Counted from the first letter of the stretch, positions 1 to 28,566 are shown. The stretch is DNA of 64,000 nt from Candidatus Latescibacterota bacterium (GCA_965248755.1 OZ252149.1:3776001-3840000), one strand, 5' to 3'. The notes: generated by a model not told the origin, from the sequence alone. Numbers and translations: made by a program.

Positions 1-1
1 T

Positions 2-751
2 TCCACGGCATCTGCTCAGGTCACCTTGAGTATCCCTGAGGTTGCTGTGATGCCGGGGGATAAGGGAGTCGTTATCCCGATTCAGATGGATAACAGTTCA
101 GGAACTGTCAAAGGGATTCAGGTGTTCTTGGAGTTCGATAGTATGAGTATAGATATAACTGATGTGCAAGTATCCCAGAGAGTTGAACATATATCGAGTT
201 TCTTGTTTAATGTCCTGCCAAACGAGTTGAGGTTAGTTATCCTGGATTTCGGAGGAAATGTCGTGGATGAGGGAGCAGGACCGATAGCCTTTATGGTCAT
301 CGATGTATCGGACCGCCTGACGGGGAATCGAAAGATACCTCTCGGGTTCATAAGACAGACGCCTGCTGTGACTGTGGTGATAGACGAGCACAACGAGGAA
401 TACGACCTGATTTTGATAGATGGGGGATTGAATGTACTGAGTACGGATGTAGTTGAAAAAGACGATGAACCCATGAAATATGCACTGTCGCAGAACTATC
501 CGAATCCGTTTAATCCAGGGACAGTGATTCGTTACAGCATCGCTGAGGATAACTATGTGAAGCTGGACGTTTACGATATTTTGGGACGTCTGGTAGTTAC
601 TCTGGTGGATTCTTACATAACCGCGGGATTCTACAGCGTCAATTGGGATGGGAAAGATAGTTGGGGGAAGGATGTGGCAAGTGGCGTCTATATATATAGA
701 ATACGATCCGGGTATTTTCTGTCTGTGCGGAGGATGACGCTCGTAAGGTAG
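2..751 (+). CDS. Cohesin-domain protein with T9SS type-A/FlgD-Ig C-terminal domain (5'-partial)
   Basis: Frame is open from base 2 (STASAQVTLSIP...). Cohesin-like pattern VVIPIQMDN..GIQVFLEFD...LIDGGLNV, then CTD SQNYPNPFNP...WDGKD..G..VASGVYIY. Confidence 0.8.
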   Translation, partial: STASAQVTLSIPEVAVMPGDKGVVIPIQMDNSSGTVKGIQVFLEFDSMSIDITDVQVSQRVEHISSFLFNVLPNELRLVILDFGGNVVDEGAGPIAFMVIDVSDRLTGNRKIPLGFIRQTPAVTVVIDEHNEEYDLILIDGGLNVLSTDVVEKDDEPMKYALSQNYPNPFNPGTVIRYSIAEDNYVKLDVYDILGRLVVTLVDSYITAGFYSVNWDGKDSWGKDVASGVYIYRIRSGYFLSVRRMTLVR

Positions 752-759
752 TCGGGAAC

Positions 760-1908
760 ATGGATAAGATAAAGATCCTGCATCTTATAAATAGCTCAGA
801 GGTCGGCGGGGGCCCCAGACACGTGCAGTTGTTGATCCGTGGTATGGACGGCAGAAGGTTCGAGAATATAGTCGGGTGCTCAGACGACGGGCCTATGGTC
901 GCTGTGTTTAAGGAGATGGATGTGGAGGTCAGCGTTATAGATTTTGTGGATGGCCTCCATCCCGGAATGGGAAGAATGCAGCTCTGGATACTGGTGTCTG
1001 ATGTGCTCAGCGTAATCAGGAGCCAGAAAGTAGATCTGGTGCACGCGCACGGAACCAGGACGGGCATTTACGGGGGAATCGCTGCGAGGATAGCGGGGAT
1101 CAGGTGCATCTATACAGTGCACGCTTTGTCCGTGAGCTCTAAGAGGAGTGCTTTGGGAAAGATCCTGTGCTGGTTCATTGAGAGGACCTGCTGTTTTCTT
1201 GTGGATTTTGTGATTTCTGTCTCGGAAGTGAACAGACAGATTATGGTCAAGTGGAAAATTGTAAGAGAGGATAAGATCCAGACGATTAGGAACGGCATAG
1301 ACATAGACGAGCTGACCCCCGATTTAATCGGGGGGGACTTCGTGCCTACTGGAGATTTTGCGGATGGGAGAGCTGTTGTGGGGACTGTGGGAAGACTTGT
1401 ACCTCAAAAGGGGCAGGAGTATTTTATCCGGGCGGCAAAGATGGTGTTAGATGTCTATCCGGGCGTGGAGTTCCTGGTGGTGGGAGAGGGACCTTTAGAA
1501 GGGAGATTGAAGGGGATAGCAGTGGAGTTGAAAATTGACGACAAAGTCAAGTTTGCGGGCACAAGGAAAGATATAGCTGACGTGCTGAGGAAGATGGACA
1601 TTGTGGTGATGCCCTCTCTGTGGGAAGGGTTGCCGTATGTGGCTTTAGAGGCTTTAGGCGCAGGAAAGGCGCTGGTGGCGTCGGATGTAGGTGAAATCAG
1701 GGAGGTGGTTGAAGATGAGAGGACGGGGCTGCTTGTTAAGCCGAAGGATGTAAAGGGTCTGGCCGATGCCCTGATAGGTCTTTTGAAGGATAGAGATAGG
1801 ATAAACATACTAGGGACCGGGGGCAGAAACGCTGTAAGCGAGCGGTTCGATGTGAATGATGCGATAAAAGGGACTGTGGGGGTGTACGAGAGGGTTCTGG
1901 AATTGTAG
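760..1908 (+). CDS. Glycosyltransferase family 4 (GT-B)
   Basis: GGGPRHV N-terminus, VHAH, GRLVPQKG, PSLWEGLPYVALEA (EX7E) motifs. Confidence 0.92.
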   Translation: MDKIKILHLINSSEVGGGPRHVQLLIRGMDGRRFENIVGCSDDGPMVAVFKEMDVEVSVIDFVDGLHPGMGRMQLWILVSDVLSVIRSQKVDLVHAHGTRTGIYGGIAARIAGIRCIYTVHALSVSSKRSALGKILCWFIERTCCFLVDFVISVSEVNRQIMVKWKIVREDKIQTIRNGIDIDELTPDLIGGDFVPTGDFADGRAVVGTVGRLVPQKGQEYFIRAAKMVLDVYPGVEFLVVGEGPLEGRLKGIAVELKIDDKVKFAGTRKDIADVLRKMDIVVMPSLWEGLPYVALEALGAGKALVASDVGEIREVVEDERTGLLVKPKDVKGLADALIGLLKDRDRINILGTGGRNAVSERFDVNDAIKGTVGVYERVLEL

Positions 1909-1930
1909 ATCTAAGAATGTAAGGGTTTAC

Positions 1931-2022
1931 GCTGAAGGAAAATCCTTCAGAGATACTGTTGAAGGAAAATCCTGCTGAAGGAAAATCCTTCAGAGATACG
2001 TTGAAGGAAAATCCTTCAGAGA
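1931..2022. repeat. Four tandem copies of the palindromic unit (C/T)TGAAGGAAAATCCTTCAG(AGATAC)
   Basis: Copies at about 1932, 1959 (truncated), 1975 and 2001. CTGAAGGA-AAA-TCCTTCAG is an inverted repeat. Confidence 0.9.
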
Positions 2023-2033
2023 GAGAGGGAACG

Positions 2034-3512
2034 ATGCGGCAGGTAATTCTTATTCTATGGATTGAATTATTTGCCATTTTTTTTAGTATTTTTGTAGCGA
2101 ACGCTGCCGTGCATGAGTTTAGGGCGTCGGTGCGGATTCCGCTTCATCACTGGTCTTATGACGTCCTTGAAAGGTTGGCTACCGAGGGGCTTGTAGATAG
2201 GATGATGATTGGACATAAGCCTCTGAGGAGACGTGATGTGGCAAGAACTGTTCTGAATCTTTCAACTATAAAGGACGAAATATCAAAGGGAAACAGTGTC
2301 CTGGTGAGGAACTTGGAGAGGGAGTTCAGGGTTGAGATTGAGGGTATCAGAGCCGAAAAGGAGAGCTTTCTTGGGGAATTTCATATAAGGCCTCAGTTTA
2401 CAGTAGGCGGATGGACTAGAGATTTTGTGAATAATCTGGACAGTTATCGGCTATTCGATTTTCAGGAGGGGACGAATCTAGGGCTGGAGATACCTTTAGG
2501 GTTGAATATCGGGGATAGGACTTCGATTTTCCTGTCGCCTTATGTATTGTGGAACGAGGACACAACAGAGGCCAGGCTTAGAACGGCTTATGTGGATGTA
2601 GACCTCTGGGGTATGGATATTGAGGTGGGGATAGACGAGTTGTGGTGGGGTCCCGGGTATCACGGCGATTTTGTCATAACGGATAATGCTGACCCGTTTT
2701 TTTTGGGGCGAGTTTCCAGGATGTTTGAAGAGATCAGGGCCACAGTTGTAGTAGGAGCGGTTAAGACTGCACAGGAAGGTAGGGGGGATGTAAATGCGAC
2801 TCTGGGTGGGATGAGGGTGGAGTGGTCGTACAGAAATAGACTATTTTTGGAGGCGAGCCTGGGATCGGTCTTCGGGGGAGGGAGTGCAAATCAGGTCGGT
2901 GAGTTCGGAGGTGCCTGGTACGTTGCAAATGGCGTGAAGATATACGCAATAAGCGGGGGAGACGATCTGTGGGAGTCGGGTGTGAAGAGGAGGTCTTTCC
3001 CCTGGGGCAAAAAAAACGGTCGCATATCAGGGATATATCTGAGCGATCCTCTGCAGGACGGGAAGACGGATTTCAGGGTGGAGCTGGCGGTGTTGGAGGA
3101 ATTGGAAGGAAGGGAGGATAATTGGTACTTTGAAAGGGGAAGGGATTACTTTCATAAAGGGAGTATTTTGGGACATCACCTGGGCAGGAGAGGAATTGGG
3201 GGCACAAGGAGGAGGAATGAGCGGGATTTCTTTTTGAAGATAGGACATCAGTTATCGAGCGATTTGAGGGTAGAGGCGCAGTACAACAGGGAGTCGTCGG
3301 ATGTATCGGTTACACAGCCCATAGAGATAGAGTTCAGAGAATTTATAAGCTTCCTTTCGTTGGATGTTATGTATCAATCGAGCCGGAAGGTGAATCTGTA
3401 TTTTGCTGGGAGGTTCTTCCCAGTTTTAAGGCAGGTGCTGCAAACAGGGGCAGTGGATGTGGACCAGAAAGATTTCATGTACACTATTACCGCAGAGTAT
3501 ATGCTCTTTTAG
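2034..3512 (+). CDS. wzi: Capsule assembly Wzi-family outer-membrane beta-barrel
   Basis: Signal peptide from ATG 2034; the upstream ORF extension is the tandem repeat. HWSYDVLERL N-terminal motif, WWGPGYHGDFVITDNA motif, C-terminal aromatic residue. Confidence 0.7.
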   Translation: MRQVILILWIELFAIFFSIFVANAAVHEFRASVRIPLHHWSYDVLERLATEGLVDRMMIGHKPLRRRDVARTVLNLSTIKDEISKGNSVLVRNLEREFRVEIEGIRAEKESFLGEFHIRPQFTVGGWTRDFVNNLDSYRLFDFQEGTNLGLEIPLGLNIGDRTSIFLSPYVLWNEDTTEARLRTAYVDVDLWGMDIEVGIDELWWGPGYHGDFVITDNADPFFLGRVSRMFEEIRATVVVGAVKTAQEGRGDVNATLGGMRVEWSYRNRLFLEASLGSVFGGGSANQVGEFGGAWYVANGVKIYAISGGDDLWESGVKRRSFPWGKKNGRISGIYLSDPLQDGKTDFRVELAVLEELEGREDNWYFERGRDYFHKGSILGHHLGRRGIGGTRRRNERDFFLKIGHQLSSDLRVEAQYNRESSDVSVTQPIEIEFREFISFLSLDVMYQSSRKVNLYFAGRFFPVLRQVLQTGAVDVDQKDFMYTITAEYMLF

Positions 3513-4058: not shown

Positions 4059-4295
4059 ATGCGCAAAAAGGTAAAGATCCTGAAAGATTCTGGGTTGATC
4101 TTAGCTCTTAGCATCTTTATAGGTGCTTGGGAGGCGTCGGCCGGTCAGATCCCTGAGGAGACTATGGATTCTATAACCGATACAATCTCCTTTGACGCTG
4201 TGGGGGACAGGGCAGCAATTCAGATTGGGATAGATACGGTTGCGGTTAACTCAGGGGCGACATTGAGAGATAGTCTGTTGTCTGTGAGCTATTAT
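4059..4295 (+). pseudogene. N-terminal fragment (signal peptide) of a secreted dockerin-like protein interrupted by insertion
   Basis: GGAG RBS and signal peptide MRKKVK...WEASA. Joins in frame to 6906-7514 across the ATTAT direct repeat. Confidence 0.75.
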
Positions 4296-4576
4296 TGTCT
4301 ATTTATCTCCTTTTCAGGACTATAATCTGTGCGGCTTTTGCTCCCAGCGTGATAGCCGCGGCTTGTTCTAGCCGCCGTATTGCAGATATAAACTGCTTGG
4401 GTGAACAGCTCTTCAGTTCCTGACCATAGTAACACCCCCGAGTTTCTTCATAGGTCTACCCAGGTCTTTTCCAAGATCTTGTCCCAGGCACTTTTATTGA
4501 GAGTATAAAAGAAATTTCTACTTAACCTATGATTCAAGAGGAGAGATACGCTAACATCTATCGAGTATATCAATTC

Positions 4577-4665
4577 TGGTGCCGAAGCCGGGAGTCGAAC
4601 CCGGATGGACGTTAAAGCCCGCGGGATTTTGAGCCCCGTGTGTCTACCAGTTTCACCACTTCGGA
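4577..4665 (-). tRNA. tRNA-Leu (anticodon CAA), CCA encoded, with a U1-C72 mismatch
   Basis: Minus strand TCCGAAGTGGTGAAACTGGTAGACACACGGGGCT-CAA-AATCCCG, long variable arm, CCGGGTTCGACTCCCGG, CTTCGGC-A-CCA. Confidence 0.92.
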
Positions 4666-4740
4666 ACCTGTATTCAGATCGTCCAAATATGCGGGTAAGC
4701 AGCCAGCGCCAGACTGGAATGTCTGACGCGACACTTTGAA

Positions 4741-5232
4741 TCAAAAACTATCAGCCCGATCATATCCAGGGGCGTTTGCCTTGCACGGTCCTATGATCTC
4801 TGAGAAGACGACCGCTTGTACTACGGATTTAGAGTTGAATCAAATCGGCAGACGCACAGGAGCTTTATAATCTCCTTTTTCTGCCCTTCCCCACTCGGGA
4901 GACTTGGCAGGTTTTGAAGGTGCAGCGTGCACAGCGGGTCGAACGACCACTTCGGATTGTCCACTCGATTCTGGCTGAACATACCCTACAGTCTCTAACT
5001 TTTTAGTCCTCTCCCGCGCTAAAGTCTCCTGCTTGTGTATCTGATCTTCAGCTTCAAAATCGTATTCTTCTTCCATTTCATCCGCCGGCATTATATCCCG
5101 CTGTGCCCTGGCAATAGGAACAGCAGGCGGACCAGCTGCGGAATCTTCCTTCGCCTTTCTCTCCGCCTGCCGGATCTTGCTGAATATATAGGATATTACG
5201 ATGAGAATGATGACAAACCAGAAACTATCCAT
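4741..5232 (-). pseudogene. YqfB-like membrane-anchored protein with an in-frame TGA at 4840-4842
   Basis: N-terminal TM segment and charged linker. After the TGA the frame continues FNSKSVVQAVVFSEIIGPCKA..., resembling the 'SEIlgpP.A' C-terminus of YqfB-like proteins. Confidence 0.6.
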
Positions 5233-5274
5233 TACACGATCTTTCTTTTTTGAACTGCTTGTTACAGAGTCAAC

Positions 5275-6900: not shown

Positions 6901-6905
6901 ATTAT

Positions 6906-7514
6906 GTCGTTGGTGTGCTTAATCCGTTTCTTGCCAAGGTCTTTGATCTAAGCGGTAGTGAACCGGGCGCGGAGTTGGTAAGTAAGACGATAGATCCTGC
7001 TGGAGGTCTCAGTCAGCTCACAGCGTCCGGATGGACAAGGTTTGAGGATGGCAGAGTCTCCTTGGGAATTACAAAGAATCAGCAACTGTTTCCAGCTATG
7101 GAGTTGTCCTCCGCTACGGGTCCTTCAATAGGTGGGATTAGCAGTCTTGACGCCGACGCAAGCTGGACCTACGATGACATCGCAGGGACGACTAAGTGGA
7201 GACGGGGCTCCGATTTTGTGGGGATCGCAGGGGACGGAGGATTTATGATACGGGCACTGACGGGTATCATGGGAGATGTGACGAAATTCGCGGGTCTTGA
7301 AAGGGGCACAGCAGACGGCGAGGTTGGGACGGAGGATCTGGACTTCGTAGTGGATGTAATCCTTCAGAGGACTTCAGCAACTGGTGTATCTGATGTACTG
7401 TCAGGGGCAGATGGGGTTACGCGGTTCCTTATGGATCCGGTGGACGGTGCAGGTGGAGGGGCTGACGGTACGATCAATCTCTTTGATGTCTTGTTAGTTG
7501 TAGATAGGCTCTAA
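6906..7514 (+). pseudogene. C-terminal fragment of the interrupted secreted protein, ending in a dockerin-like duplicated Ca-binding motif
   Basis: ADGEVGTEDLDFVVDVIL ... ADGTINLFDVLLVVDRL. The 5' part of track ORF 6741 is IS sequence. Confidence 0.7.
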
Positions 7515-7569: not shown

Positions 7570-8385
7570 ATGAAAAGATCGGTCAGAATGTTCGGTTGCG
7601 CTTTGATGATTCTTGCGGGATTTGTCTATTCTGCAGAGGCAGCAGACGTAAGTTTGAGCCTTCCTGATGTATCTGTGGAGCCCGGAGGAGTGGGAACCGC
7701 GGCAATTAAGATGGAAAATCTGGAAAGTGAGGTCTTGGGGGTTCAGATAGTTTTAAAATACGATCCTAATGTGGTAAAGACGATAAAGATTCAGAAGGCA
7801 GGTCGCACCGATCACATGGACGTTTTGGAAAGCAACGTAGTGGAGCCGGGGATTTTGAAGCTGCTGGTGTTTGATCTGGAGGGGGAGTCTATCTCAAAGG
7901 GCGAGGGAGATATAGTAAATGTGGAGTTTACCGTCTCACCGGATGCGTCGCTCGGAGGGGTGAGTCCGTTGGAAATTATCTTTACAGAGGATAACACCAA
8001 TACCACCCTGGCTGATCTGGATAGGTTGGCGATTAAGTCCCTACAGATTAAGGACGGTGCAATTACGATAGGTCAGTCGGAGGAAGCGGATGGGGAGGGC
8101 ATACCGGGCAGCTCTTCGCTTTTACAAAACTTTCCGAATCCCTGGAACCCTTCTACCGTCATCAAGTATCACATAGCCCAGGATGGGCACGTGAATTTAA
8201 GTATATATAACATTGCAGGACAGCTTGTTCGGAATCTGGTGGATGATACTAAAAAGGCTGGAAAGTACGATGTGCAATGGGACGGGAAGGACAATAGTGG
8301 CAGAGTTGTGACAAGCGGAGTCTATTTCTATAAGATCGCTGCTGAAAATTTTAAGTCCACAAGGAAGATGATACTTTTGAGATAA
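7570..8385 (+). CDS. Secreted single-cohesin protein with T9SS/FlgD-like CTD
   Basis: AGGAGG RBS, signal peptide (..AEA/A), cohesin pattern GVQIVLKYDPNVV...IKDGAITI, CTD QNFPNPWNP...SGVYFY. Confidence 0.85.
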   Translation: MKRSVRMFGCALMILAGFVYSAEAADVSLSLPDVSVEPGGVGTAAIKMENLESEVLGVQIVLKYDPNVVKTIKIQKAGRTDHMDVLESNVVEPGILKLLVFDLEGESISKGEGDIVNVEFTVSPDASLGGVSPLEIIFTEDNTNTTLADLDRLAIKSLQIKDGAITIGQSEEADGEGIPGSSSLLQNFPNPWNPSTVIKYHIAQDGHVNLSIYNIAGQLVRNLVDDTKKAGKYDVQWDGKDNSGRVVTSGVYFYKIAAENFKSTRKMILLR

Positions 8386-20964: not shown

Positions 20965-23900
20965 ATGAAAAATAAACTGTTATTCCTGATGGGACTAGCT
21001 CTTGTGTATCTGCTTGCCCCCGGGATTACCCAGGCAAACGGTGGGGTGATTATAGATATCGGGGACGGTTTGGCCGCTGCGGGAGAGTCCAATGACGTGT
21101 TTATCTCTATTACTAACGATACAACTACTATTAATACGACTATAGCGGCGTTTCAGTTTGATGTGGTATTTGACAGCACCCAGCTTGAGCCTGTAACCGA
21201 TAGAGGTCTTTCTATATCGGTGGGAGATCCTGTACCTTTCTCAACGATCGATCTGAGGATGGAGACTCAATCGCCTGCCATGAAGACGGAGTTGATTGCG
21301 GCTAATACTATAAGGGTTGTGTTTGTTGATCTTACTACAAGTACTTTAGCAGGAGCAAGGAAAGTTTTGCCGGCAGGTAGAGGACCTATTATGTCTATAA
21401 GGTTCAAAGCAAAAGAAGGTGCGTCAGCAGGAAACAATAGTTTGTTCATAGAAACTAACGAGTTGTCGGATCTGAGAGGTGAGTCGATTCCTTCAGCTAC
21501 AGAACCAGGCACTTTCTCTGTGGTGACCCTGGGACTTGGCATTGGTCAGGGTCAGGCGGCTGTGGGACAGACGGGTCCTGCTCCCGTAATCTTGATAAAT
21601 GTGGATCCTATCGGTGGTGTTCAGTTCGATGTGGGTTTCGACAATAGTCTGCTGGAGTTCGTGGGGGTCGAACAGACAACCAGGAGTACAGGACTGATAC
21701 AGGTTGCGGGGGATACTCTACCGGGTCAGCCGGATGTAGTGCGCGTCGTTGCAGTGAGAGGGCGTCCAGGTAGAGCTATAGCCTCCGATACCAAGGGTGT
21801 AAACCCCGTATTTAATCTTCTGTTCAGGGTAAAGAAAGTGGCCGATCCTGACTCGATCTTGAGCTTTTCTTCACCTTTGACGTTAGCCAACTTGATAATT
21901 TCGGACGAACAGGGTGAAGAGACATTTTTGGATGCGGCTCCGGCCAGCGGGCTCTTTACTGTGGTGCGCGTAAAGGAGTCCCCGGTAGCGAATTTCACTG
22001 CGACTGTCGTAACGGGTACCAGAACAGTGAGGCTCAGGAACCGTTCAACGGGGCTTGCCGAATCTTTCGAGTGGGACCTAGGGGACGGCGGGAGCGCTAC
22101 AGTCGAGAACCTTAATCACACGTACGCACTTCCCGGGGCTTACCAGGTGACTCTGAGGGTGACAGGACCTACGCCCCCTGGGCTATTCGACACAGAGACC
22201 AAGCTTGTAGTTGTGGCGGCTCCTCGTCCGTCTGTCTCAAGTGTAATTCCAAGCAGAGTAGACAACGATGTGGAGAATGTCGTGACTGTCACCGGAGCTG
22301 AGTTCTTCGTGCAGGACGGGACACTTCCCGTCGTGGGGATAGACGGCTTCTTCCCGCCAGTCCAGTTTGTAAGTTCGAATCAGCTAAGGGTTACTATTCG
22401 GGCAGGAATTCCCATAGGTGTCTTTGATGTGCAGGTGACAAACCCCGATGAGCAGAGTGCCCTCGCGCCGCTGCCGAAGCTGACAATTGATCGTCCCGCC
22501 CCGGGAATAGACGCTGTCGATCCGAGCACTGTAACTGCGGGAATAGATGATATCGTTACTATTACGGGTTCTAATTTCTTCAACGATCCTCTGCCAATTT
22601 CGGTATCTATAGATGGGATTGCGCTGGCCGTTACGTTTGCTAACTCTACTACTTTGAGAGCGACGGTTGCAGGGACAGTGGCTCAGGGGACTTACGATGT
22701 GACGGTGACGAACTCCGATCCTGACGGCTCGCGTCCACTGGGCCCTCGGAGCGCGACTCTTGCTGGGGCTTTGACGGTGACCACACTTCCTCCAGACCCT
22801 CAGTCTGTGACTCCTGATACCGTCGTTGCAAGGGTGGATGCGCGCCTGACGATCAGCGGCCAGAACTTCAAGGAGGGGGCGACTGCGACTCTGGGAGGTG
22901 TGGATCTGGATGTCATCTTTATAAACAGAAGAGAATTGAGGGGAACGCTCTTAGGGACAGAATCTGTGGCGCTTGAAGGACCACAAGATCTGGTGGTGAC
23001 GAACCCTGATGATCTGAGCGGAACTTTAGAGGCAGCACTAGTGGTGCTTCAGCTGGCGGCGCCGAGTGTGACTGCTATCGATCCTAGTACAGTGGTGAAC
23101 GACAGGGACACGACATTTAGTATTACGGGTGCGAACTTCTTTGATCGCCCCACACCTCCCCAGGTAAGCGTGGACGGCGTGGCTTTGAGGGACGTGGAGT
23201 TCATAAGCAGTACAGAGCTGAGGGCCCTCGGCGGTCTTGGCCTTGACGTTGGTACAAGGAACGTGACTGTGACGAACCCTGACGGTCAAAGCGCCACAGG
23301 CGCCGGGATTTTAGATGTCATAGTGGGGCAGGTGATTCTGGCAGCCGTAGAACCGGCTATTGTCGTAAACGATTCAGCAAGGACTATAACGCTTTTGGGA
23401 GCTAACTTCGTGGCTCCTATTACAGTGGTGACAATAGACGGGACACCGCTGTCCGATGTTACTCCAGTAGATTTGAGGAGAGTGACGGCGACTGTCCCTG
23501 CGGGTCAGGCTCCGGATACCTACGATGTTACCATAAATGCGCTTCCGGGCAGTGCGACCCTTAGGAACGCTTTGACCGTAATTCTCCCGGCTCCGAGAGT
23601 AACGGTACTTGATCCCGACACCGTGTTTACGGAGACCGATGTCCTTTTAACGATTACGGGAGCTAATTTTGTAGATGGTGCATCCGCGCGGATAGACGAC
23701 GGAAGCGGAAACGTATTTCCTCTAACTCCTGTGGAGTTCGTAAGCGGCACGGAACTCCGGGCAACGATAAGCGGAATTTTCCCTGATCTCAGGTTTTATG
23801 ATGTTGTAGTTATAAATCCCGACGGTCAGAGAGGGGTGCTGGAGGACGGATTATGGATTACGGACTTTCCTGCTCCCCAGGTGGTGGGCATAAGCCCCGA

Positions 23901-26900
23901 TACGGTTGGAAATAATGTGGCGACAGATGTGGTCATCGAAGGAGCAAATTTCCGGGAGGGGGCTTTGGCGCGAATAGGCAGGGCTGATGCGGCGACTTTT
24001 GGATTGATAGGCATAGATGTCATAGACTCACGTTCAATTTCAGCTACTGTACCTGGAGGTTTAGATCCAGGGATCTACGATGTGATAGTGGTAAATCGCG
24101 ATCCGCTGGACAGGAAGGCAAGGCGCGGGATCGGAAGAGCAGAGGGAATCCTGGTGGTTCAGGACAGGGTCCGCCCATCGTTTAGACCCGCTCCGAGAAT
24201 TGTCGGCGCATCGGATAGCACTCTGACAGTCTTCTGGGGCGCAACCGAGCTGCATACGGGATTCGTGAGGTTTGAAAATACGGCTACCGGTGTTCTGGAC
24301 TCAGTGGCGACGCCGCCAGAACTCAAGATAGGTCATAGGCTTATTGTGGGCGGATTGGCGGCTAATATTAGATATAGAATAAGCGTGAGGATCTTCGACC
24401 TGGCGGGAAACCAGACCATAAGCCGAGACGTATTTGAGACGACTAAGAAGATTATACTGCCTTCGGTCAGGTTCGTTGAGGGTCCAACGGTGGTGAATAT
24501 TACTGACGTGACAGCAAACATAGTAGTAGGATTCAACAGGCTGGCGGAGGTGGAAGTACAGTTTTACAGCGTGGCGTCGCCTGAAGATACTAGAATAGTG
24601 GTGAGTGATCTGTCCAGAAGACACAACATCACCCTTTTCGACTTGACCTCAGACACTCTGATCGAATTGATAGTTACAGCTACCGATTTAGATGATAACG
24701 TTGTAATAAGCGGCATAATTCAAATTAGGACAGACCTGGGCCCGGACGTGACTTCACCGATCTTTACTTTGGGTCCGTTCGTGCGTGGGGTGACGACGAA
24801 CTCGGCCGGGATAGGGACGGTTACAAGCGAGAGTACGACTATCAGGATAGACTTTGGTACGTCCGCCGATTTCGGTCAAGTGCTCATTGGGGATGAGACG
24901 ACCGATAAGCATGCGAATAGATTGAGGGATCTTGATTTGACAACCACGTACTTCTTCCAGGTGACTGTGGCAGACCTTGCGGGCAACGAGACGGTTTCGG
25001 ACGTGGATTCTTTTGCGACTCTTTCACCTGTGCAGATCATACCTCTGGAGATAACTGAGCCTCCCTTCGCCTCCGGTATCGACACCAGTGAGGTTACGAT
25101 TGCCTATACAACTAACAAGATATCAGACACGAGGATATTGTATGGGACTGCACCGGATTCTTTGATTCAGTTGTTTGTGGACTCGGAAAACGTCTTAAAG
25201 CACAGCGGCGACTTGACAGGGCTGACTACGGCAACGGATTACTTTTACACGGTTACTTCAACTGCGCTGGACGGCGACGAGATAACCTCTGATATACTGA
25301 GGTTTAGGACGAGATCAGTAACTCTACCTCTCTTGATTACTGGGGGTCCTAATCTGGACTTTGCTGATACGAGCTCGGCTCAGATATCCTGGCTTACGAA
25401 TAAGCCTGGCAACTCGATAGTGGAATTCGGATTGACAGAAGGCCCACCTTTTGATGATAGAAAGATTGTATCGGAAAAAGTTGTGGATCACGTGGTGAGT
25501 CTTACCGATCTGCAGTCAGGAACTCAGTATTTCTACAGGGTGATCTCCGAGGGAAGCGACGTAACAAGCGTAGTCAAAATCTTTAACACGACGGATGCCG
25601 TAGATTTAACTCCGCCTTCGCTCACAAGAGGTCCGGTTCCTGCACGTGTCAGAGATAGGGCAGGCGTGGATGTTAATACGGTGACGATAAAATGGAGCAC
25701 GGACGATCCTTCTAATTTTGTTCTCCGATTCAAGGGTACTGACGATCCCAGAGCAGAGACCGACGTTGTAAGGAACAGGGATGTCAGGACAGTCTCGGAT
25801 CCAAACTTTACGAAGGATCATACGGCGATCTTGACGAATTTAACTTCCAATACAGTTTACTTTTATCTGATAGAGGCTCGAAATCCCACGGCACCGGATG
25901 CAGCTCTATTCAAGCCGAGAGTGGGAAAAACCTTTAAGTCCAAGACTCTCAGGGTGCGGGACGCGACTCCGCCTACGTTTGTGGATGGACGTCCGAGCGC
26001 GGGCTACACGAGCGCTACGAGGGCCGTATGGGTATGGAGGACCAACGAACCTTCTACGAGCGAGGTGTTTCTAAGGGAGGAGGGGTCTGTATCCTTCGAC
26101 TTTTTAGGGGATACCCGCTTTGTGACAGATCACTCCGTTCCGGTAACGGGTCTGACAGCGGGGACGACGTACGAAGTTATAATAATCTCGGCGGACAGGG
26201 CCGGGAACTTCGTGAGCTTTCCCGTACCAGGTATAAGGCCGAAATTTGCAAGGGAGAACGCTGCAAATGGAATCCTGGCAAAGGCAGTCTTCCAGCCTCC
26301 CGGAGGCAGGGGATCGTTTACGACATCTTTTATCGAAGATACAGACCCTCCCATCATTCTGACCGATCCATCGCTGCTGTCAACCACGCAGAACAGCGTC
26401 ACAATGAGCTGGCCTACGAATGAGCTTTCAGACAGTGTGTTAGAGTTCAGTCTGACTGATACTACTGTAGAGGGCAAGGTTTTTGGAGCTTTACAGGAAG
26501 AGCCGACGTTCGAGTTCCGGAAGGAGTTTGGCCAGGACGTCGTAGATCACATTGTGTTGGTGACAGATCTGCCTGAAGGGCAGACCTTCGACTTTCAAGT
26601 CTCTTCGACTGACCCGAACGACAATGGTCCGTCGTTCAGCAATCCTTCAATCTTTTCGACAGTGATAGAGCCAGATGTGACTCCTCCCAAGGTACTGGAC
26701 GTGAGTGTAGAAGGTAAAACGACGAATCAGGCGACCCTTGCGTGGAGGACAGATGAGCTTGCCAACAGTGTGGTGGAGTTCTTCACTGCGGGAGGGGATA
26801 CGCTCTTGAGAGAAGACGATAGAAATGTGATCGATCACAGGGTGACCTTGACGGGTTTGGAGCTAGGGACGGAATATACCACTTCGGTTTCTTCTACTGA

Positions 26901-28566
26901 CATAAGTGGCAACGGTCCTTCTTCATTTGCTACGACCTTTACGACGGCTACTGAGATTGACATTATACCCCCAGCAATAAGAGATGTTTCGGGAAGGGAA
27001 GGGGCGGAAGCTCAGTTTGTGACCTCTCTTTCCGATTCGACGGCGAGTTTAGAGTGGATTACGGATGAACTCTCCAACAGCTTTGTGGATTTCGACACCA
27101 CGCGGTCGACTCTGGAGTCAGGAGTGGGATTCAGTGTTGCAGGAAGCGCGGAGAACATCATAAGGCACAGAGTCACTTTGACGGGCTTGAGGAGCGGAAT
27201 TACATACTCCTACAAGGTTGGATCTGAAGATGTAACCGATCCCCCGAATGTGGCCCAGAGCGAAATACTCTCATTTGTGCCAGAGGCGGATGTGACTCCT
27301 CCCCAGAGGCCAGAAGAGGTAAAGTCCATAGGTGGAGACAGAGAGGTCTTTCTGAGTTGGAAGCAGAACGTAGATCTTGACTTTGCGTCTTATCAGGTCC
27401 TAAGGTCTGTGGGTGACGAAAGCTTTGCAAGCATAGCGACAGGTGTTACGGACACGACATTCCGTGATGTAGGGCTTGAGAACGGCTCGGAGTACGCATA
27501 TAAGGTGGTGGCGTTCGACAGGGCGGCCAACTCGGCAGAATCCGACATCGCTCAGGTGGATCCTATCCCGGCTGTTGGAAACGTTGCGACGGCTCCCGGG
27601 ATCATAGGTATAGGACCAGATCCTGATTTAGGACGTCCTATTGTCGGCGCAGAAGAGAATGTCAAGACTCAGACTCCCAACCTTTTGATAAGTCAGGCCT
27701 CTCCGGGACTGCGTGACACTCTATCTGTGTTGACTTACACGTTCACAGTCTATTCAGATTCAGCGCTGACCGACGTCGCAAGGTCTATTTCGGGGATTAC
27801 ACCGGCGGGACCCGATGATCCGATTCCAGGGAGCGGTTTCAGTCTGTTCTGGCATCTCACTCCTCCTTTGGACAAGGATATAGATCTTGCTACTGGCGAG
27901 TTCATTGCGACGACTTTCTGGTGGAGAGCAAGGGCTAACGATAGTATATTTAACGGCCAGTGGTCCGCAGCCGAGAAGTTTGTAGTCGATGCTGTGGCTG
28001 TGGTGGAGCTATCCAGCTTCACGGCCCTGGAAGACAGGGGAAGAGTAAGAGTAAACTGGGTCACGGCAAGCGAGAGGGAGAACGCCGGGTTCAACATCTA
28101 CAGGAGTATAACAAAAGACGGGGTCTACCATAGGTTGAACGATGAGCTGCTTGTGGGAGACAGTCCCTACATGTTCGTGGATGAGGATGTACAGATAGGA
28201 AGGACCTACTACTACAAGCTTGAGGCTCTTGATATAGTAGGGGAAGGAACCTTATTCGGCCCTGTTGCGACGACTCTGAGAGGGCCTATGAGCTATTCTC
28301 TTTCCCCAAACTATCCAAATCCTTTCAACCCTGAGACTACCATAAATTACGAGGTACCCAAGACAGGAAGATTGACGCTTAAGATATATAACGTCCTGGG
28401 TCAGGAGGTAAAGACGCTGGTGGATGAGAAGTTGGAGCCAGGTTATTATAGGGCGCTATGGGATGGAAAAGACAGCACAGGCAGACAGATGGCAAGCGGG
28501 GTCTATTTCTACCGTATAAAATCGGAGGGTTTTGCCAAGTCGCTGAAGATGATGCTTTTGAAGTAG
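20965..28566 (+). CDS. Giant secreted protein (~2533 aa): 2 cohesins, PKD, ~7 IPT/TIG, ~11 FN3-like domains, CTD
   Basis: Signal peptide from ATG 20965. AAFQFDVVFD / GGVQFDVGFD (cohesin), FEWDLGDG (PKD), repeated ITGANF...V.VTNPDG (IPT), W.T.E.S.S.V.F...H.V.LTGL (FN3), VELSSFTA and CTD. Confidence 0.85.
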   Translation: MKNKLLFLMGLALVYLLAPGITQANGGVIIDIGDGLAAAGESNDVFISITNDTTTINTTIAAFQFDVVFDSTQLEPVTDRGLSISVGDPVPFSTIDLRMETQSPAMKTELIAANTIRVVFVDLTTSTLAGARKVLPAGRGPIMSIRFKAKEGASAGNNSLFIETNELSDLRGESIPSATEPGTFSVVTLGLGIGQGQAAVGQTGPAPVILINVDPIGGVQFDVGFDNSLLEFVGVEQTTRSTGLIQVAGDTLPGQPDVVRVVAVRGRPGRAIASDTKGVNPVFNLLFRVKKVADPDSILSFSSPLTLANLIISDEQGEETFLDAAPASGLFTVVRVKESPVANFTATVVTGTRTVRLRNRSTGLAESFEWDLGDGGSATVENLNHTYALPGAYQVTLRVTGPTPPGLFDTETKLVVVAAPRPSVSSVIPSRVDNDVENVVTVTGAEFFVQDGTLPVVGIDGFFPPVQFVSSNQLRVTIRAGIPIGVFDVQVTNPDEQSALAPLPKLTIDRPAPGIDAVDPSTVTAGIDDIVTITGSNFFNDPLPISVSIDGIALAVTFANSTTLRATVAGTVAQGTYDVTVTNSDPDGSRPLGPRSATLAGALTVTTLPPDPQSVTPDTVVARVDARLTISGQNFKEGATATLGGVDLDVIFINRRELRGTLLGTESVALEGPQDLVVTNPDDLSGTLEAALVVLQLAAPSVTAIDPSTVVNDRDTTFSITGANFFDRPTPPQVSVDGVALRDVEFISSTELRALGGLGLDVGTRNVTVTNPDGQSATGAGILDVIVGQVILAAVEPAIVVNDSARTITLLGANFVAPITVVTIDGTPLSDVTPVDLRRVTATVPAGQAPDTYDVTINALPGSATLRNALTVILPAPRVTVLDPDTVFTETDVLLTITGANFVDGASARIDDGSGNVFPLTPVEFVSGTELRATISGIFPDLRFYDVVVINPDGQRGVLEDGLWITDFPAPQVVGISPDTVGNNVATDVVIEGANFREGALARIGRADAATFGLIGIDVIDSRSISATVPGGLDPGIYDVIVVNRDPLDRKARRGIGRAEGILVVQDRVRPSFRPAPRIVGASDSTLTVFWGATELHTGFVRFENTATGVLDSVATPPELKIGHRLIVGGLAANIRYRISVRIFDLAGNQTISRDVFETTKKIILPSVRFVEGPTVVNITDVTANIVVGFNRLAEVEVQFYSVASPEDTRIVVSDLSRRHNITLFDLTSDTLIELIVTATDLDDNVVISGIIQIRTDLGPDVTSPIFTLGPFVRGVTTNSAGIGTVTSESTTIRIDFGTSADFGQVLIGDETTDKHANRLRDLDLTTTYFFQVTVADLAGNETVSDVDSFATLSPVQIIPLEITEPPFASGIDTSEVTIAYTTNKISDTRILYGTAPDSLIQLFVDSENVLKHSGDLTGLTTATDYFYTVTSTALDGDEITSDILRFRTRSVTLPLLITGGPNLDFADTSSAQISWLTNKPGNSIVEFGLTEGPPFDDRKIVSEKVVDHVVSLTDLQSGTQYFYRVISEGSDVTSVVKIFNTTDAVDLTPPSLTRGPVPARVRDRAGVDVNTVTIKWSTDDPSNFVLRFKGTDDPRAETDVVRNRDVRTVSDPNFTKDHTAILTNLTSNTVYFYLIEARNPTAPDAALFKPRVGKTFKSKTLRVRDATPPTFVDGRPSAGYTSATRAVWVWRTNEPSTSEVFLREEGSVSFDFLGDTRFVTDHSVPVTGLTAGTTYEVIIISADRAGNFVSFPVPGIRPKFARENAANGILAKAVFQPPGGRGSFTTSFIEDTDPPIILTDPSLLSTTQNSVTMSWPTNELSDSVLEFSLTDTTVEGKVFGALQEEPTFEFRKEFGQDVVDHIVLVTDLPEGQTFDFQVSSTDPNDNGPSFSNPSIFSTVIEPDVTPPKVLDVSVEGKTTNQATLAWRTDELANSVVEFFTAGGDTLLREDDRNVIDHRVTLTGLELGTEYTTSVSSTDISGNGPSSFATTFTTATEIDIIPPAIRDVSGREGAEAQFVTSLSDSTASLEWITDELSNSFVDFDTTRSTLESGVGFSVAGSAENIIRHRVTLTGLRSGITYSYKVGSEDVTDPPNVAQSEILSFVPEADVTPPQRPEEVKSIGGDREVFLSWKQNVDLDFASYQVLRSVGDESFASIATGVTDTTFRDVGLENGSEYAYKVVAFDRAANSAESDIAQVDPIPAVGNVATAPGIIGIGPDPDLGRPIVGAEENVKTQTPNLLISQASPGLRDTLSVLTYTFTVYSDSALTDVARSISGITPAGPDDPIPGSGFSLFWHLTPPLDKDIDLATGEFIATTFWWRARANDSIFNGQWSAAEKFVVDAVAVVELSSFTALEDRGRVRVNWVTASERENAGFNIYRSITKDGVYHRLNDELLVGDSPYMFVDEDVQIGRTYYYKLEALDIVGEGTLFGPVATTLRGPMSYSLSPNYPNPFNPETTINYEVPKTGRLTLKIYNVLGQEVKTLVDEKLEPGYYRALWDGKDSTGRQMASGVYFYRIKSEGFAKSLKMMLLK

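What the first reader, a model, noticed from the sequence alone, without database searches (positions are those of the whole stretch)
2..28566. Cellulosome-like cohesin/dockerin scaffold system with T9SS-type sorting domains in a diderm, with no catalytic modules
Seen: six clustered co-oriented genes encode about 13 cohesin-like and 3 dockerin-like modules. They include a 7-cohesin scaffoldin, a cohesin+dockerin adaptor, single-cohesin proteins and a cohesin-tipped IPT/FN3 stalk; five share one CTD; none has a recognisable GH/CBM domain. Known: multi-cohesin scaffoldins are best characterised in Firmicutes cellulosomes, anchored by SLH/sortase; cohesins and dockerins occur elsewhere but are poorly characterised. 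Inference: a hierarchical, outer-membrane-exported modular surface scaffold (primary/adaptor/anchor) that displays dockerin cargo encoded elsewhere or builds an adhesive matrix.
Basis: partly seen in the sequence, partly recalled or inferred. Interest (0 to 1): 0.88.

Follow-up and report, generated by a model that had tools for sequence, protein, structure and literature searches.

The report
Type IX-anchored cohesin scaffold gene island
Five neighbouring genes of an uncultured outer-membrane-bearing bacterium encode surface proteins carrying 13 cohesin "sockets" and type IX secretion tails, and they likely hold dockerin-tagged adhesin-like proteins and a few enzymes on the cell surface; this kind of non-cellulose-degrading system has been predicted before but never tested.

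Summary
The observation mostly holds. Window 2-28566 has five intact co-oriented genes (A, C, D, E, F) with 13 cohesin modules (1, 1, 7, 2, 2). They are supported by Pfam, by a profile that hits only solved cohesins, and by a predicted fold with Z 19 to cohesins. All five end in a T9SS type A sorting domain, and none has a GH or CBM.

The "dockerins" are weaker. D and E carry divergent dockerin-like modules inside dockerin-cohesin-CTD cassettes. The sixth gene (B) is a pseudogene split by an insertion and has no convincing dockerin.

Genome-wide I count 61 cohesins, about 25 internal dockerins and about 26 C-terminal dockerins. The latter sit on tail-less β-propeller proteins and a few proteases, a phosphatase and a lyase-like protein. 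SprA, PorU and PorV are present; GldLMN were not detected.

The cluster lies in a strain-variable island beside a conserved exopolysaccharide locus. No binding is shown.

This scan already noted cohesin-dockerin-T9SS proteins elsewhere in this genome and in many others. A T9SS-tailed scaffoldin was inferred in print for Cloacimonadota. I therefore file it as a new, unusually cohesin-rich member of a known but untested kind.

The parts
1..751 (+). Gene A (starts 140 nt upstream of the window; 296-aa ORF): signal peptide, one cohesin (nt 20-424), T9SS type A CTD (nt 497-748).
   Evidence: Own cohesin HMM 9e-16. TIGR04183 38.8 bits against cut-off 23. Full ORF and signal-like N-terminus.
760..3512 (+). 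GT4 glycosyltransferase (760-1908) and Wzi-like capsule-assembly protein (1959-3512), interleaved with the cohesin genes.
   Evidence: Pfam Glyco_trans_1_4 7.5e-38 and Caps_assemb_Wzi 1.7e-26.
4059..7514 (+). Gene B, a pseudogene. The 5' piece with a signal peptide is at 4059-4325 and the 3' piece at ~6894-7514. They are separated by a ~2.6-kb insertion that includes a 1626-1630-bp IS (5275-6900; transposase 5475-6872 on the minus strand). B has no cohesin. Its C-terminal ~200-aa domain has no family and ends in a dockerin-like helix.
   Evidence: IS with about 48 near-identical copies. Intact 789-aa paralog L145 joins both pieces. The domain recurs at the C-terminus of 4 other ORFs. No Pfam or NCBIfam hit. 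DDE_Tnp_1_4 2.4e-128.
7570..8385 (+). Gene C (271 aa): signal peptide, cohesin (7648-8070), T9SS CTD (8131-8385).
   Evidence: Pfam Cohesin 4.1e-12. TIGR04183 44.6 bits. AF2 model pLDDT 87 and cohesin fold at Z 19.2.
8526..16403 (+). Gene D (2625 aa; probable start at Met48, nt 8667), the 7-cohesin scaffoldin. Cohesins: D1 8739-9158, D2 9165-9578, D3 9585-10001, D4 10017-10430, D5 13677-14093, D6 14427-14846, D7 15735-16097. Choice-of-anchor D / ASH Ig domains: ten at 10437-13667, one at 14103-14414, one at 14856-15185. Divergent dockerin-like module at 15378-15560. CTD at 16137-16400.
   Evidence: Pfam Cohesin 4e-37 in 6 stretches and HYDIN/ASH. Own HMM finds 7 modules. NF012200 461.9 bits in 11 stretches. 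Twelve Ig repeats by jackhmmer. The C-terminal 385 aa are 37% identical (5e-74) to the dockerin-cohesin-CTD protein L019. Dockerin-like module: own HMM 1.4e-5, Pfam 13.5 bits, three helices at pLDDT 66-85.
16524..20837 (+). Gene E (1437 aa). Cohesin E1 16599-17024. Invasin_D3-like Ig 17067-17345. Seven ASH/choice-of-anchor D Ig domains 17355-19886. Divergent dockerin-like module 19893-20123. Cohesin E2 20151-20531. CTD 20580-20834.
   Evidence: Pfam Cohesin 1.9e-10 in 2 stretches. Own HMM 9e-23 and 9e-29. Pfam Dockerin_1 19.3 bits, below the cut-off, at 19893-19964. The C-terminal 357 aa are 41% identical (1e-68) to the C-terminus of L038. TIGR04183 39.0 bits.
20902..28566 (+). Gene F (2554 aa; probable start nt 20965), the cohesin-tipped stalk. 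Cohesins F1 21046-21522 and F2 21529-21963. PKD 21979-22167. Seven IPT/TIG domains 22228-24117. Ten FN3-like domains 24184-27291. CTD 28309-28563.
   Evidence: Pfam Cohesin 3e-12, TIG, Pur_ac_phosph_N, fn3 and PKD. Repeat map. TIGR04183 39.2 bits. Ortholog at 87% aa identity in the same-genus genome G001.
29550..49168 (+). Adjacent exopolysaccharide/capsule locus: UDP-glucose dehydrogenase, epimerase, Wzi, Wza-like exporter, Wzz, Wzy, glycosyltransferases, carbamoyltransferase and the priming sugar transferase.
   Evidence: Pfam. Window 28601-48600, which covers this locus up to nt 48600, is 96% identical in DNA and collinear in G001.
58608..60161 (+). PKD + alpha/beta-hydrolase protein with an internal type-Y dockerin (nt 58974-59162), a candidate cargo encoded in the window.
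   Evidence: Pfam. Own docY HMM. A2 profile 118 bits at C1:3834974-3835162.

Best explanation
Window 2-28566 encodes five intact type IX-secretion substrates (A, C, D, E, F) that together carry 13 genuine cohesin modules. They likely act as outer-membrane-anchored sockets on which dockerin-tagged proteins encoded elsewhere in the genome are displayed.

SHOWN.
- The modules are cohesins by sequence and by predicted fold.
- Each protein has a signal peptide-like N-terminus and a T9SS type A C-terminal domain.
- The genome encodes SprA/Sov, PorU and a PorV-family protein.
- The proteins contain only cohesins and Ig-like stalk domains (choice-of-anchor D/ASH, IPT/TIG, FN3-like, PKD), with no enzyme or CBM.
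- The genome holds two dockerin classes. Type X is internal, always beside a cohesin and in front of a CTD. Type Y is highly conserved and lies at the extreme C-terminus of CTD-less proteins, about half of which have a recognisable signal peptide. These are mostly FG-GAP, NHL and PD40 propellers with TIG domains, plus an M6 protease, a heparinase II/III-like protein, a phosphatase fragment and a hydrolase.

INFERRED.
- After Sec export the five proteins pass SprA. PorU would remove the CTD and attach them to the cell surface.
- Their cohesins, mostly of a clade never found next to a dockerin, would bind dockerins in a Ca-dependent way. The tail-less type-Y proteins are the most plausible partners.
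- The long Ig stalks of D, E and F would hold the sockets away from the membrane, through or above the exopolysaccharide made by the neighbouring locus.
- D and E additionally end in a divergent copy of the genome's dockerin-cohesin-CTD cassette, which could link scaffold proteins to each other.
For: COHESIN IDENTITY. Searches (32 of 32 PDB hits are cohesins; pLDDT 87.2; top 20 rows all cohesins, Z 19.2-12.8).

SORTING DOMAIN. TIGR04183 is above its cut-off in 5 of 5 proteins.

MACHINERY. SprA TIGR04189 766 bits (cut-off 200). PorU NF033707 712 bits (cut-off 420). The adjacent PorV/PorQ-family protein scores 243.7 bits (cut-off 90).

GENOME CENSUS (my own HMMs on 15,933 six-frame ORFs). 61 cohesins in 34 ORFs, type-X dockerins in 25 ORFs, type-Y dockerins in 26 ORFs, CTDs in 101 ORFs. 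There are 24 ORFs with a type-Y dockerin and no CTD. There are 10 coh-docX-coh-CTD and 8 docX-coh-CTD proteins.

TYPE-Y DOCKERINS. 18 aligned copies show 67% mean column identity and two DxDxD/N...D loops. The best PDB profile hits are dockerins (2b59_B at 2e-6). A hydrophobic signal-like N-terminus is present in 10 of 19 C-terminal type-Y proteins of at least 180 aa.

COHESIN TREE. A, C, D1-D6, E2, F1 and F2 form a clade with other cohesin-only proteins. D7 falls with the cohesins that lie between a dockerin and a CTD.

CASSETTE HOMOLOGY..

RELATIVES. In genus g7 (0 of 20 genomes) and family f13 (0 of 9 genomes) no type-X dockerin was found. In the complete genomes of these groups about 35-59 type-Y matches were counted (capped at 59), against 1-3 Pfam cohesins. 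Cohesin regions were sampled from four of these genomes. Five of the eight cohesin-bearing ORFs there end in docY-cohesin-CTD, and the other three carry cohesin plus CTD without a detected dockerin. This fits 'few anchored sockets, many plugs'.
Against: - No binding is shown for any pair.
- The window's own dockerin-like modules are below Pfam's cut-off.
- In relatives that have only type-Y dockerins, the cohesins are mostly orthologs of a different G000 cohesin (L023, docY-coh-CTD), not of the window's clade. Only one of eight sampled falls near D5/D6/F. The pairing of window cohesins with type-Y dockerins is therefore a guess.
- Type-Y proteins lack a CTD, and their route across the outer membrane is unexplained. 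Only one secretin gene was found.
- GldL, GldM and GldN were not detected. The controls for GldM and GldN did not ring, so this is inconclusive.
- D, E, C and A have no orthologs even in a same-genus genome that is 96% identical in the flanking DNA. They are therefore dispensable and fast-changing.
- No RNA evidence is available.
Confidence: 0.55

Rival explanations
1. Self-assembling surface matrix. The cohesins mainly bind the internal type-X dockerins of other CTD-anchored cassette proteins, including the divergent dockerins of D and E. This would cross-link surface proteins of one cell or of neighbouring cells into a protein mesh within the exopolysaccharide (biofilm or aggregate glue) rather than displaying free cargo.
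For: About 20 proteins carry a dockerin-cohesin-CTD cassette, and D and E end in divergent copies of it. The cluster is interleaved with EPS genes (Wzy, glycosyltransferases, Wzi, Wza) over about 70 kb. Passengers are mostly propeller and Ig adhesin-like domains. Earlier scan note e1-4843203 reached a similar reading for the cassette.
Against: The window's cohesins, except D7 and E1, belong to a clade never found next to a dockerin. The 24 tail-less type-Y dockerin proteins would be left without a role. No binding has been tested.
Confidence: 0.22
2. The cohesin-fold modules here do not bind dockerins at all. They would serve as beta-sandwich adhesin or spacer modules that bind, for example, glycans or the cell's own polysaccharide, on variable surface proteins whose diversity serves surface variation.
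For: The island differs completely between two genomes with 96% identical flanks, apart from F. D1-D4 are found only in one other assembly (97% identity) among the candidates scored from 5.8 billion proteins. Five IS copies lie within about 45 kb. Cohesin modules in the window are only 18-30% identical to each other.
Against: Cohesins and dockerins co-occur across the phylum: cohesins in 81 of 101 genomes and type-Y dockerins in 83 of 101. They are fused in one cassette. The family's only established function is dockerin binding (established knowledge of the family, recalled).
Confidence: 0.15
3. A true cellulosome analogue: scaffoldins that organise dockerin-bearing glycoside hydrolases for plant or algal polysaccharide breakdown.
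For: It has a multi-cohesin scaffoldin architecture. One type-Y protein has a heparinase II/III-like domain (L126), and one PKD protein matches the Sde0182 C-terminal domain (L008). PMC7081726 (passage seen) cites Farag et al. 2017 for 'cellulosome-affiliated enzymes' in Latescibacteria.
Against: 0 of the 50 dockerin-bearing ORFs scanned (of 51 found) has a glycoside hydrolase catalytic family at the thresholds used. There is no CBM on A-F. The enzymes that were found are proteases (S8, M23, M6), GSDH, a phosphatase and a hydrolase.
Confidence: 0.04

Closest known systems
Scaffoldin-like protein of 'Ca. Stygibacter' (Cloacimonadota), Williams et al. 2021, PMC8542988 (abstract and passages seen)
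   Same: A large non-catalytic protein with tandem cohesins and a T9SS-type C-terminal domain, in an uncultured FCB-group diderm. Dockerins sit on secreted enzymes, including an S8 peptidase. The inference is from sequence only.
   Different: That protein has CBM2/CBM3 modules and its cargo includes GH18 and GH57. Here there is no CBM and no GH. Most dockerin proteins are beta-propeller/Ig proteins. There are five separately anchored cohesin proteins, two dockerin classes, and a position in a strain-variable island next to an EPS locus.
Clostridial and ruminococcal cellulosome scaffoldins (e.g. cohesins in PDB 5nrk, 6kgc, 2vn5, 1ohz)
   Same: The cohesin fold matches at Z 17-19 and rmsd 1.6-2.0 A over 130-134 residues, and the modules fall in the same sequence family. 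Both have multi-cohesin proteins and duplicated Ca-loop dockerins.
   Different: Those systems belong to Gram-positive bacteria, are anchored by SLH or sortase, carry CBM3 and display GH cargo. Here the anchor is a T9SS CTD in a diderm, with no CBM and no GH cargo.
Non-cellulosomal cohesins and dockerins (Peer et al. 2009, FEMS Microbiol Lett; not held, known only from the reference list of PMC8542988 and from recall), e.g. Archaeoglobus fulgidus cohesin 2xdh
   Same: Cohesin and dockerin modules in non-cellulolytic organisms, often both in one protein. 2xdh_A matches the model at Z 17.6.
   Different: Those cases usually have one or a few modules per genome. This genome has 61 cohesins, 13 of them in one island, combined with T9SS sorting.
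Earlier notes of this scan: e1-4843203 and e1-356780 (same genome), e1-1116300 (Calditrichaeota 8-cohesin T9SS scaffoldin), e1-5318176 (SAR406 dockerins replacing CTDs)
   Same: The same theme: cohesin plus T9SS CTD anchors, with dockerin-tagged tail-less proteins. A word search returned 141 notes in at least 124 genomes.
   Different: This locus is the genome's main set of cohesin-only scaffoldins, holding 13 of 61 modules, and sits in a variable island beside the EPS locus.

Membership tests
Cohesin (Pfam PF00963) | Sequence match above the curated cut-off | tested here: met
   C 46.9, D 127.9, E 41.5 and F 47.3 bits against a cut-off of 24.1. A is found only by the genome-trained HMM at 9e-16. 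The profile of the 13 modules hits 32 of 32 cohesin chains in the PDB.
Cohesin (Pfam PF00963) | Nine-stranded beta-sandwich (jelly-roll) cohesin fold | tested here: met
   AF2 model of C's cohesin has pLDDT 87.2. VIA-align finds 5nrk_A at Z 19.2, rmsd 1.7 A over 134 residues. The top 20 rows are all cohesins and the next fold is at Z 10.6. Only this one module was modelled on its own.
Cohesin (Pfam PF00963) | Specific, Ca-dependent binding of a dockerin | not testable with these tools
   This needs a binding assay.
Dockerin (Pfam PF00404), window modules in D, E and B | Sequence match above the curated cut-off (22.9 bits) | tested here: not met
   E 19.3 bits (half model), D 13.5 bits, B no match at E<=1.
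Dockerin (Pfam PF00404), window modules in D, E and B | Duplicated Ca-binding loop plus helix, homologous to canonical dockerins | tested here: inconclusive
   D and E align in register with type-X dockerins of homologous cassettes, with three invariant Asp columns. D's second loop is intact and its first is degenerate (sequence). The AF2 model gives three helices at pLDDT 66-85. B has only a terminal helix-like stretch (own HMM E 0.026).
T9SS type A sorting domain (TIGR04183 / PF18962) | C-terminal domain above the curated cut-off | tested here: met
   C 44.6, D 32.7 (27.8 on the whole protein), E 39.0, F 39.2 and A 38.8 bits against a cut-off of 23.
Type IX secretion system (machinery in the genome) | SprA/Sov translocon, PorU sortase, PorV shuttle | tested here: met
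   TIGR04189 766 bits (cut-off 200). NF033707 712 bits (cut-off 420). PorV/PorQ family NF033709 243.7 bits (cut-off 90), though the PorV equivalog reaches only 174 of 250 bits. The PorV-family gene is adjacent to porU.
Type IX secretion system (machinery in the genome) | GldK/L/M/N (PorK/L/M/N) trans-envelope motor | tested here: inconclusive
   No match for TIGR03517, PF12081, TIGR03513 or TIGR03523. GldK gives only sub-cut-off FGE-sulfatase-like hits (88.9 of 350 bits). For GldM (TIGR03517) and GldN no control genome rang.
Cellulosome | Dockerin-bearing glycoside hydrolases as cargo | tested here: not met
   0 of 50 dockerin ORFs scanned with Pfam (51 found; a 64-aa ORF was not scanned) has a GH catalytic family. 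No dedicated CAZyme database was available.
Cellulosome | Substrate-targeting CBM on the scaffoldin, and SLH or sortase anchoring | tested here: not met
   No CBM or SLH family appears in A-F at E<=0.01. Anchoring is by T9SS CTD instead.
Choice-of-anchor D domain (NF012200) stalk | Match above the cut-off | tested here: met
   D 461.9 bits in 11 stretches and E 128.9 bits in 3 stretches, against a cut-off of 45.

The most novel reading that the evidence does not exclude
The cohesin island may be a strain-variable surface-identity module of the capsule/EPS locus. Each strain would carry its own set of T9SS-anchored sockets. The roughly 25 tail-less type-Y dockerin proteins would reach the surface only by docking onto these cohesins in the periplasm and riding through the SprA translocon as folded complexes (piggyback type IX secretion). 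That would explain why dockerins replace sorting tails across this phylum.
Probability: 0.1. Interest if true: 0.8.

Novelty: new member of a known kind. Interest (0 to 1): 0.42.

Why it matters
Cohesin-dockerin assembly is understood almost only from Gram-positive cellulosomes. Here an uncultured diderm spends 13 cohesins in one island, and 61 in the genome, on surface proteins exported by type IX secretion, with mostly non-enzymatic propeller and Ig cargo.

If the predicted pairs bind, several things would follow:
- The plug-and-socket principle would be a general way of building bacterial outer surfaces: adhesion, particle attachment, and display of proteases and phosphatases.
- It would give a testable answer to how secreted proteins without a sorting tail are retained on, or even reach, the surface in FCB-group bacteria.
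- It would supply many new orthogonal cohesin-dockerin pairs for protein engineering.

The finding is not new in kind. The same theme has been inferred in print for Cloacimonadota and noted repeatedly in this scan.

Tried and rejected
COMPLEX PREDICTION. I submitted D2 cohesin (alignment A3) with the type-Y dockerin of the neighbouring FG-GAP protein (alignment A2). The result was 'no answer' with score 0.02 against a mark of 0.32, and the controls were not run. This is evidence neither for nor against binding.

EXPRESSION. No RNA holder was listed for window 7570-16403. This says nothing about expression.

TAXONOMY AND RELATIVES.
- A genome-contig scan with D1-D4 found no relative; the window's own lineage may be left out of that collection.
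- An FtsY scan gave only 48-57% identical MAGs of Bacteroidota, Ignavibacteria, KSB1, Desulfobacterota and others, so it did not settle the phylum. 'Latescibacterota' comes only from earlier scan notes.

PROMOTERS AND TERMINATORS. The scans were not above the shuffled expectation.

FOLDSEEK. The 'pdb' library was busy twice, so I used pdb_via_wide instead.

LITERATURE.
- A search for 'Latescibacteria + cohesin + dockerin' found 0 papers.
- A search for 'candidate phylum Latescibacteria + dockerin' found 0 papers.
- Youssef et al. 2015 (PMC4454575) contains none of cohesin, dockerin, cellulosom or scaffoldin. My recollection that it reported them was wrong.
- Farag et al. 2017 and Peer et al. 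2009 are not held.

REJECTED READINGS.
- ORF 6741-7514 is not a dockerin adaptor. It is the 3' remnant of a split gene.
- E is not conserved. No full-length match was found in 40 relatives.
- D1-D4 gave no match in the same-genus genome G001.

Full report
WHAT IS THERE

The window is C1:3776001-3840000 of a complete 4.54-Mb single-contig genome that is 98% complete.

On the + strand between nt 2 and 28566 lie, in this order:
- gene A (2-751; it starts 140 nt before the window);
- a GT4 glycosyltransferase (760-1908);
- a Wzi-like gene (1959-3512);
- a disrupted gene B (4059-4325 and ~6894-7514);
- gene C (7570-8385);
- gene D (8526-16403, 2625 aa);
- gene E (16524-20837, 1437 aa);
- gene F (20902-28566, 2554 aa).

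Downstream, 29.5-49 kb is an exopolysaccharide/capsule locus. It encodes UDP-glucose dehydrogenase, an epimerase, Wzi, a Wza-like exporter, Wzz, Wzy, glycosyltransferases, a carbamoyltransferase and the priming transferase.

The 20 kb upstream holds, in order:
- another cohesin/dockerin/Ig gene cut by a copy of the same IS;
- a Wzy-TPR protein;
- a glycosyltransferase;
- FG-GAP proteins, one of which ends in a dockerin;
- a CN-hydrolase;
- a GT4.

Cohesin genes and polysaccharide genes are therefore interleaved over roughly 70 kb.

ARE THE MODULES COHESINS?

Yes.
- Pfam Cohesin is above its 24.1-bit cut-off in C, D (6 stretches), E and F.
- An HMM trained on the genome's 43 Pfam matches finds 13 modules in the window: A 1, C 1, D 7, E 2, F 2. 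Three of them were not among its seeds: A at 9e-16, D6 at 6e-9, D7 at 1.5e-14.
- The modules are only 18-30% identical to C's cohesin, and D1-D4 are 48-78% identical to each other.
- A profile of the 13 modules hits 32 distinct PDB sequences at E<=0.01. All are cohesins, and the best is 6kgc_A at 2e-13.
- An AlphaFold2 model of C's cohesin (pLDDT 87.2, pTM 0.81) was aligned to 48,161 PDB representatives. The first 20 rows are all cohesins, at Z 19.2 to 12.8. Examples are 5nrk_A (Z 19.2, rmsd 1.7 A over 134 residues) and the non-cellulosomal Archaeoglobus cohesin 2xdh_A (Z 17.6). The first other fold is at Z 10.6.

REST OF THE ARCHITECTURES

Sources are the jackhmmer maps, Pfam and NCBIfam.
- D: signal peptide, 4 tandem cohesins, 10 choice-of-anchor D/ASH Ig domains, cohesin, Ig, cohesin, Ig, a dockerin-like module, cohesin, CTD.
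- E: signal peptide, cohesin, an invasin-D3-like Ig, 7 ASH Ig domains, a dockerin-like module, cohesin, CTD.
- F: signal peptide, 2 cohesins, PKD, 7 IPT/TIG domains (choice-of-anchor Z), 10 FN3-like domains, about 340 aa without a family, CTD.
- A and C: signal peptide, cohesin, CTD.
- No GH, CBM or other catalytic family appears at E<=0.01.

SORTING DOMAIN AND MACHINERY

- All five C-termini exceed the cut-off of TIGR04183 (T9SS type A sorting domain), with 27.8-44.6 bits against 23.
- The genome encodes SprA/Sov (766 bits, cut-off 200) and PorU (712 bits, cut-off 420).
- Next to porU lies a PorV/PorQ-family protein (243.7 bits, cut-off 90). It reaches only 174 of 250 bits on the PorV equivalog model.
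- GldL, GldM and GldN were not detected, and GldK gave only sub-cut-off sulfatase-modifying-like hits. For GldM and GldN no control genome rang, so this is not evidence of absence.
- My CTD HMM finds 101 ORFs with this tail.

DOCKERINS

The window's 'three dockerins' are the weak part of the observation.
- Pfam Dockerin_1 gives 19.3 bits on half the model in E and 13.5 bits in D. It gives nothing in B. The cut-off is 22.9 bits.
- D's last 385 residues are nonetheless 37% identical (5e-74) to a free-standing dockerin-cohesin-CTD protein, L019.
- E's last 357 residues are 41% identical (1e-68) to the C-terminus of L038.
- In an alignment of 12 such cassettes, the D and E segments stand in register with canonical dockerins, with three invariant Asp columns.
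- D's second Ca loop looks intact and its first looks degenerate (sequence).
- An AF2 model of D residues 2270-2530 gives three helices at pLDDT 66-85 before a confident cohesin.

D and E thus end in divergent copies of a cassette that is common in this genome.

B is different.
- Its reading frame enters a 1626-1630-bp IS, which has about 48 near-identical copies in the genome.
- An intact 789-aa paralog (alkaline phosphatase + TIG + a ~200-aa C-terminal domain) shows that ORF 4059-4325 (signal peptide) and ~6894-7514 are two pieces of one gene split by ~2.6 kb.
- The C-terminal domain has no Pfam or NCBIfam match.

GENOME-WIDE PICTURE

Pfam on the six-frame genome gives 43 cohesin matches, 42 of them over the cut-off. 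It gives 36 dockerin matches at E<=1, 17 of them over the cut-off.

My own HMMs on 15,933 ORFs give the following:
- 61 cohesins in 34 ORFs;
- 'type X' dockerins in 25 ORFs. These are internal, always next to a cohesin and before a CTD; there are 10 coh-docX-coh-CTD and 8 docX-coh-CTD proteins;
- 'type Y' dockerins in 26 ORFs; in 24 of them the dockerin is the only module detected and there is no CTD.

In 18 aligned type-Y proteins the dockerin forms the last 70 residues. The copies are very alike, with 67% mean column identity over these 18, and they have two regular Ca loops. Their profile's best PDB hits are dockerins (2b59_B at 2e-6).

I scanned 50 of the 51 dockerin ORFs with Pfam.
- Passengers are mostly FG-GAP, NHL and PD40 propellers, TIG, PKD/cadherin and ASH Ig domains.
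- Enzymes are a subtilase (L036), M23 + beta-helix (L035), M6 (L029, L120), GSDH (L022), a heparinase II/III-like domain (L126), an alkaline phosphatase fragment (L129) and an alpha/beta hydrolase in the window (58608-60161).
- None has a GH catalytic family.

Ten of the 19 C-terminal type-Y proteins of at least 180 aa have a clear hydrophobic signal-like N-terminus. Several of the rest look truncated.

WHICH COHESINS ARE IN THE WINDOW?

In a tree of the 61 modules (FastTree, midpoint-rooted, supports not inspected), the modules group as follows:
- A, C, D1-D6, E2, F1 and F2 group with other cohesin-only proteins, in a clade never adjacent to a dockerin.
- E1 groups with the cohesins that precede type-X dockerins and with those of a second scaffoldin (L039, 5 cohesins).
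- D7 groups with the cohesins that lie between a dockerin and the CTD.

The window thus holds the genome's main set of 'free' sockets: 13 of 61 modules.

RELATIVES

Cohesins occur in 81 of 101 sampled genomes of the phylum, but at 1-8 matches each. G000 has 34 and its congener G001 has 23 at the same threshold. The genus therefore shows an expansion.

Type-Y dockerins occur in 83 of 101 genomes and type X in 26 of 101.

In genus g7 (0 of 20 genomes) and family f13 (0 of 9 genomes) no type X was found. The complete genomes of these groups show about 35-59 type-Y matches (capped at 59) against 1-3 cohesins.

I sampled cohesin regions in four of these genomes. Five of the eight cohesin-bearing ORFs there end in docY-cohesin-CTD, and the other three carry cohesin and CTD without a detected dockerin. 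Six of eight sampled cohesin modules are orthologous to one G000 protein, L023. One falls near D5/D6/F.

This supports the general model of few CTD-anchored sockets and many tail-less plugs. It does not show that the window's cohesin clade is the type-Y receptor.

VARIABILITY

The EPS locus (window 28601-48600) is collinear and 96% identical in DNA in G001.

F has an ortholog there, at 87% aa identity, split near its 3' end by another transposase gene.

A, C, D and E have none. G001 instead carries three different cohesin/dockerin genes on the other strand.

Further evidence of low conservation:
- E has no full-length match in 40 relatives.
- D1-D4 give no match in G001.
- Among the candidates scored from 5.8 billion proteins, D1-D4 match only one other protein, at 97% identity.

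Five copies of the IS lie within about 45 kb around the cluster. The cluster is therefore a fast-turning-over island beside a conserved polysaccharide locus.

MECHANISM

I commit to surface display. The steps are:
1. Sec export.
2. Passage through SprA.
3. CTD removal and attachment by PorU (inferred from what is known of T9SS in Bacteroidota, recalled).
4. Cohesins held out on Ig stalks.
5. Ca-dependent capture of dockerin-tagged proteins.

The tail-less type-Y set is the most plausible cargo. I put this at about 0.55.

The main rival, at about 0.22, is a cross-linked protein mesh built through the internal dockerins. The two are not exclusive.

An unsolved point is how CTD-less type-Y proteins cross the outer membrane. 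Only one secretin gene was found. This leaves room for the bolder piggyback reading.

COMPARISON WITH WHAT IS KNOWN

The closest case in print is the scaffoldin-like protein of 'Ca. Stygibacter' (Cloacimonadota). It has tandem cohesins, CBMs and a T9SS CTD, and was inferred from MAGs (PMC8542988, abstract and passages seen).

PMC7081726 (passage seen) cites Farag et al. 2017 for cellulosome-affiliated enzymes in Latescibacteria. I could not read that paper.

My searches found no experimental study of a T9SS-anchored scaffoldin:
- 'cohesin + dockerin + type IX secretion': 10 papers;
- 'scaffoldin + T9SS': 37 papers, 10 listed;
- 'Latescibacteria + cohesin + dockerin': 0 papers.

I saw only listings for most of these.

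This scan has already noted cohesin-dockerin-CTD proteins at two other places in this genome. A word search returned 141 such notes in at least 124 genomes.

The phylum name Latescibacterota comes from those notes only. My FtsY scan did not settle it.

VERDICT

This is a real, well-supported cohesin scaffold island, but of a kind already predicted. I file it as a new member of a known, experimentally untested kind.

Its particular features are:
- the number of cohesins;
- the absence of GH and CBM modules;
- mostly non-enzymatic cargo;
- two dockerin classes;
- strain variability;
- linkage to an EPS locus.

Noticed in passing
window 5275-6900 (transposase 5475-6872, minus strand): An IS of 1626-1630 bp with a DDE_Tnp_1_4 transposase has about 48 copies at 99.8-100% identity across the genome. 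Five of them lie within about 45 kb around this cluster, so the element is very recently active. Several cohesin/dockerin genes are cut by it.
   Followed up: partly
window ~6894-7514; loci L145, L146, L147, L148: A ~200-aa C-terminal domain without any Pfam or NCBIfam family ends five proteins. Their passengers are alkaline phosphatase+TIG, PD40+TIG and NHL+TIG. In the same kinds of passenger proteins it takes the place of the dockerin or the CTD, so it may be a third surface-retention module.
   Followed up: partly
window ~28916-29176: A ~255-bp repeat just after gene F matches more than 35 places in the same-genus genome G001 at 82-83% identity. It looks like a MITE-like element.
   Followed up: no
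window 4326-5274: The stretch between B's 5' piece and the IS is 91% identical to C1:499365-499840, which includes a small ORF. The insertion that split B is therefore composite.
   Followed up: no
window 50383-53532 (minus strand): A 1049-aa protein combines Peptidase_MA_2, PD40 propeller repeats and a C-terminal Omp85 barrel domain. This is an unusual fusion for an Omp85-family protein.
   Followed up: no
Five of the eight cohesin-bearing ORFs sampled from four of these genomes end in docY-cohesin-CTD. This is an extreme plug-to-socket ratio.
   Followed up: partly
G001:C8 ~1336000-1346000 (locus L157): The ortholog of gene F in the same-genus genome is split near its 3' end by a 476-aa transposase gene of a second IS family, which has 13 homologs in G000.
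   Followed up: partly
window 62402-63732: A GH32 N-terminal domain ORF (62402-62911) overlaps a following 290-aa ORF without a family. This may be a frameshifted GH32 gene.
   Followed up: no
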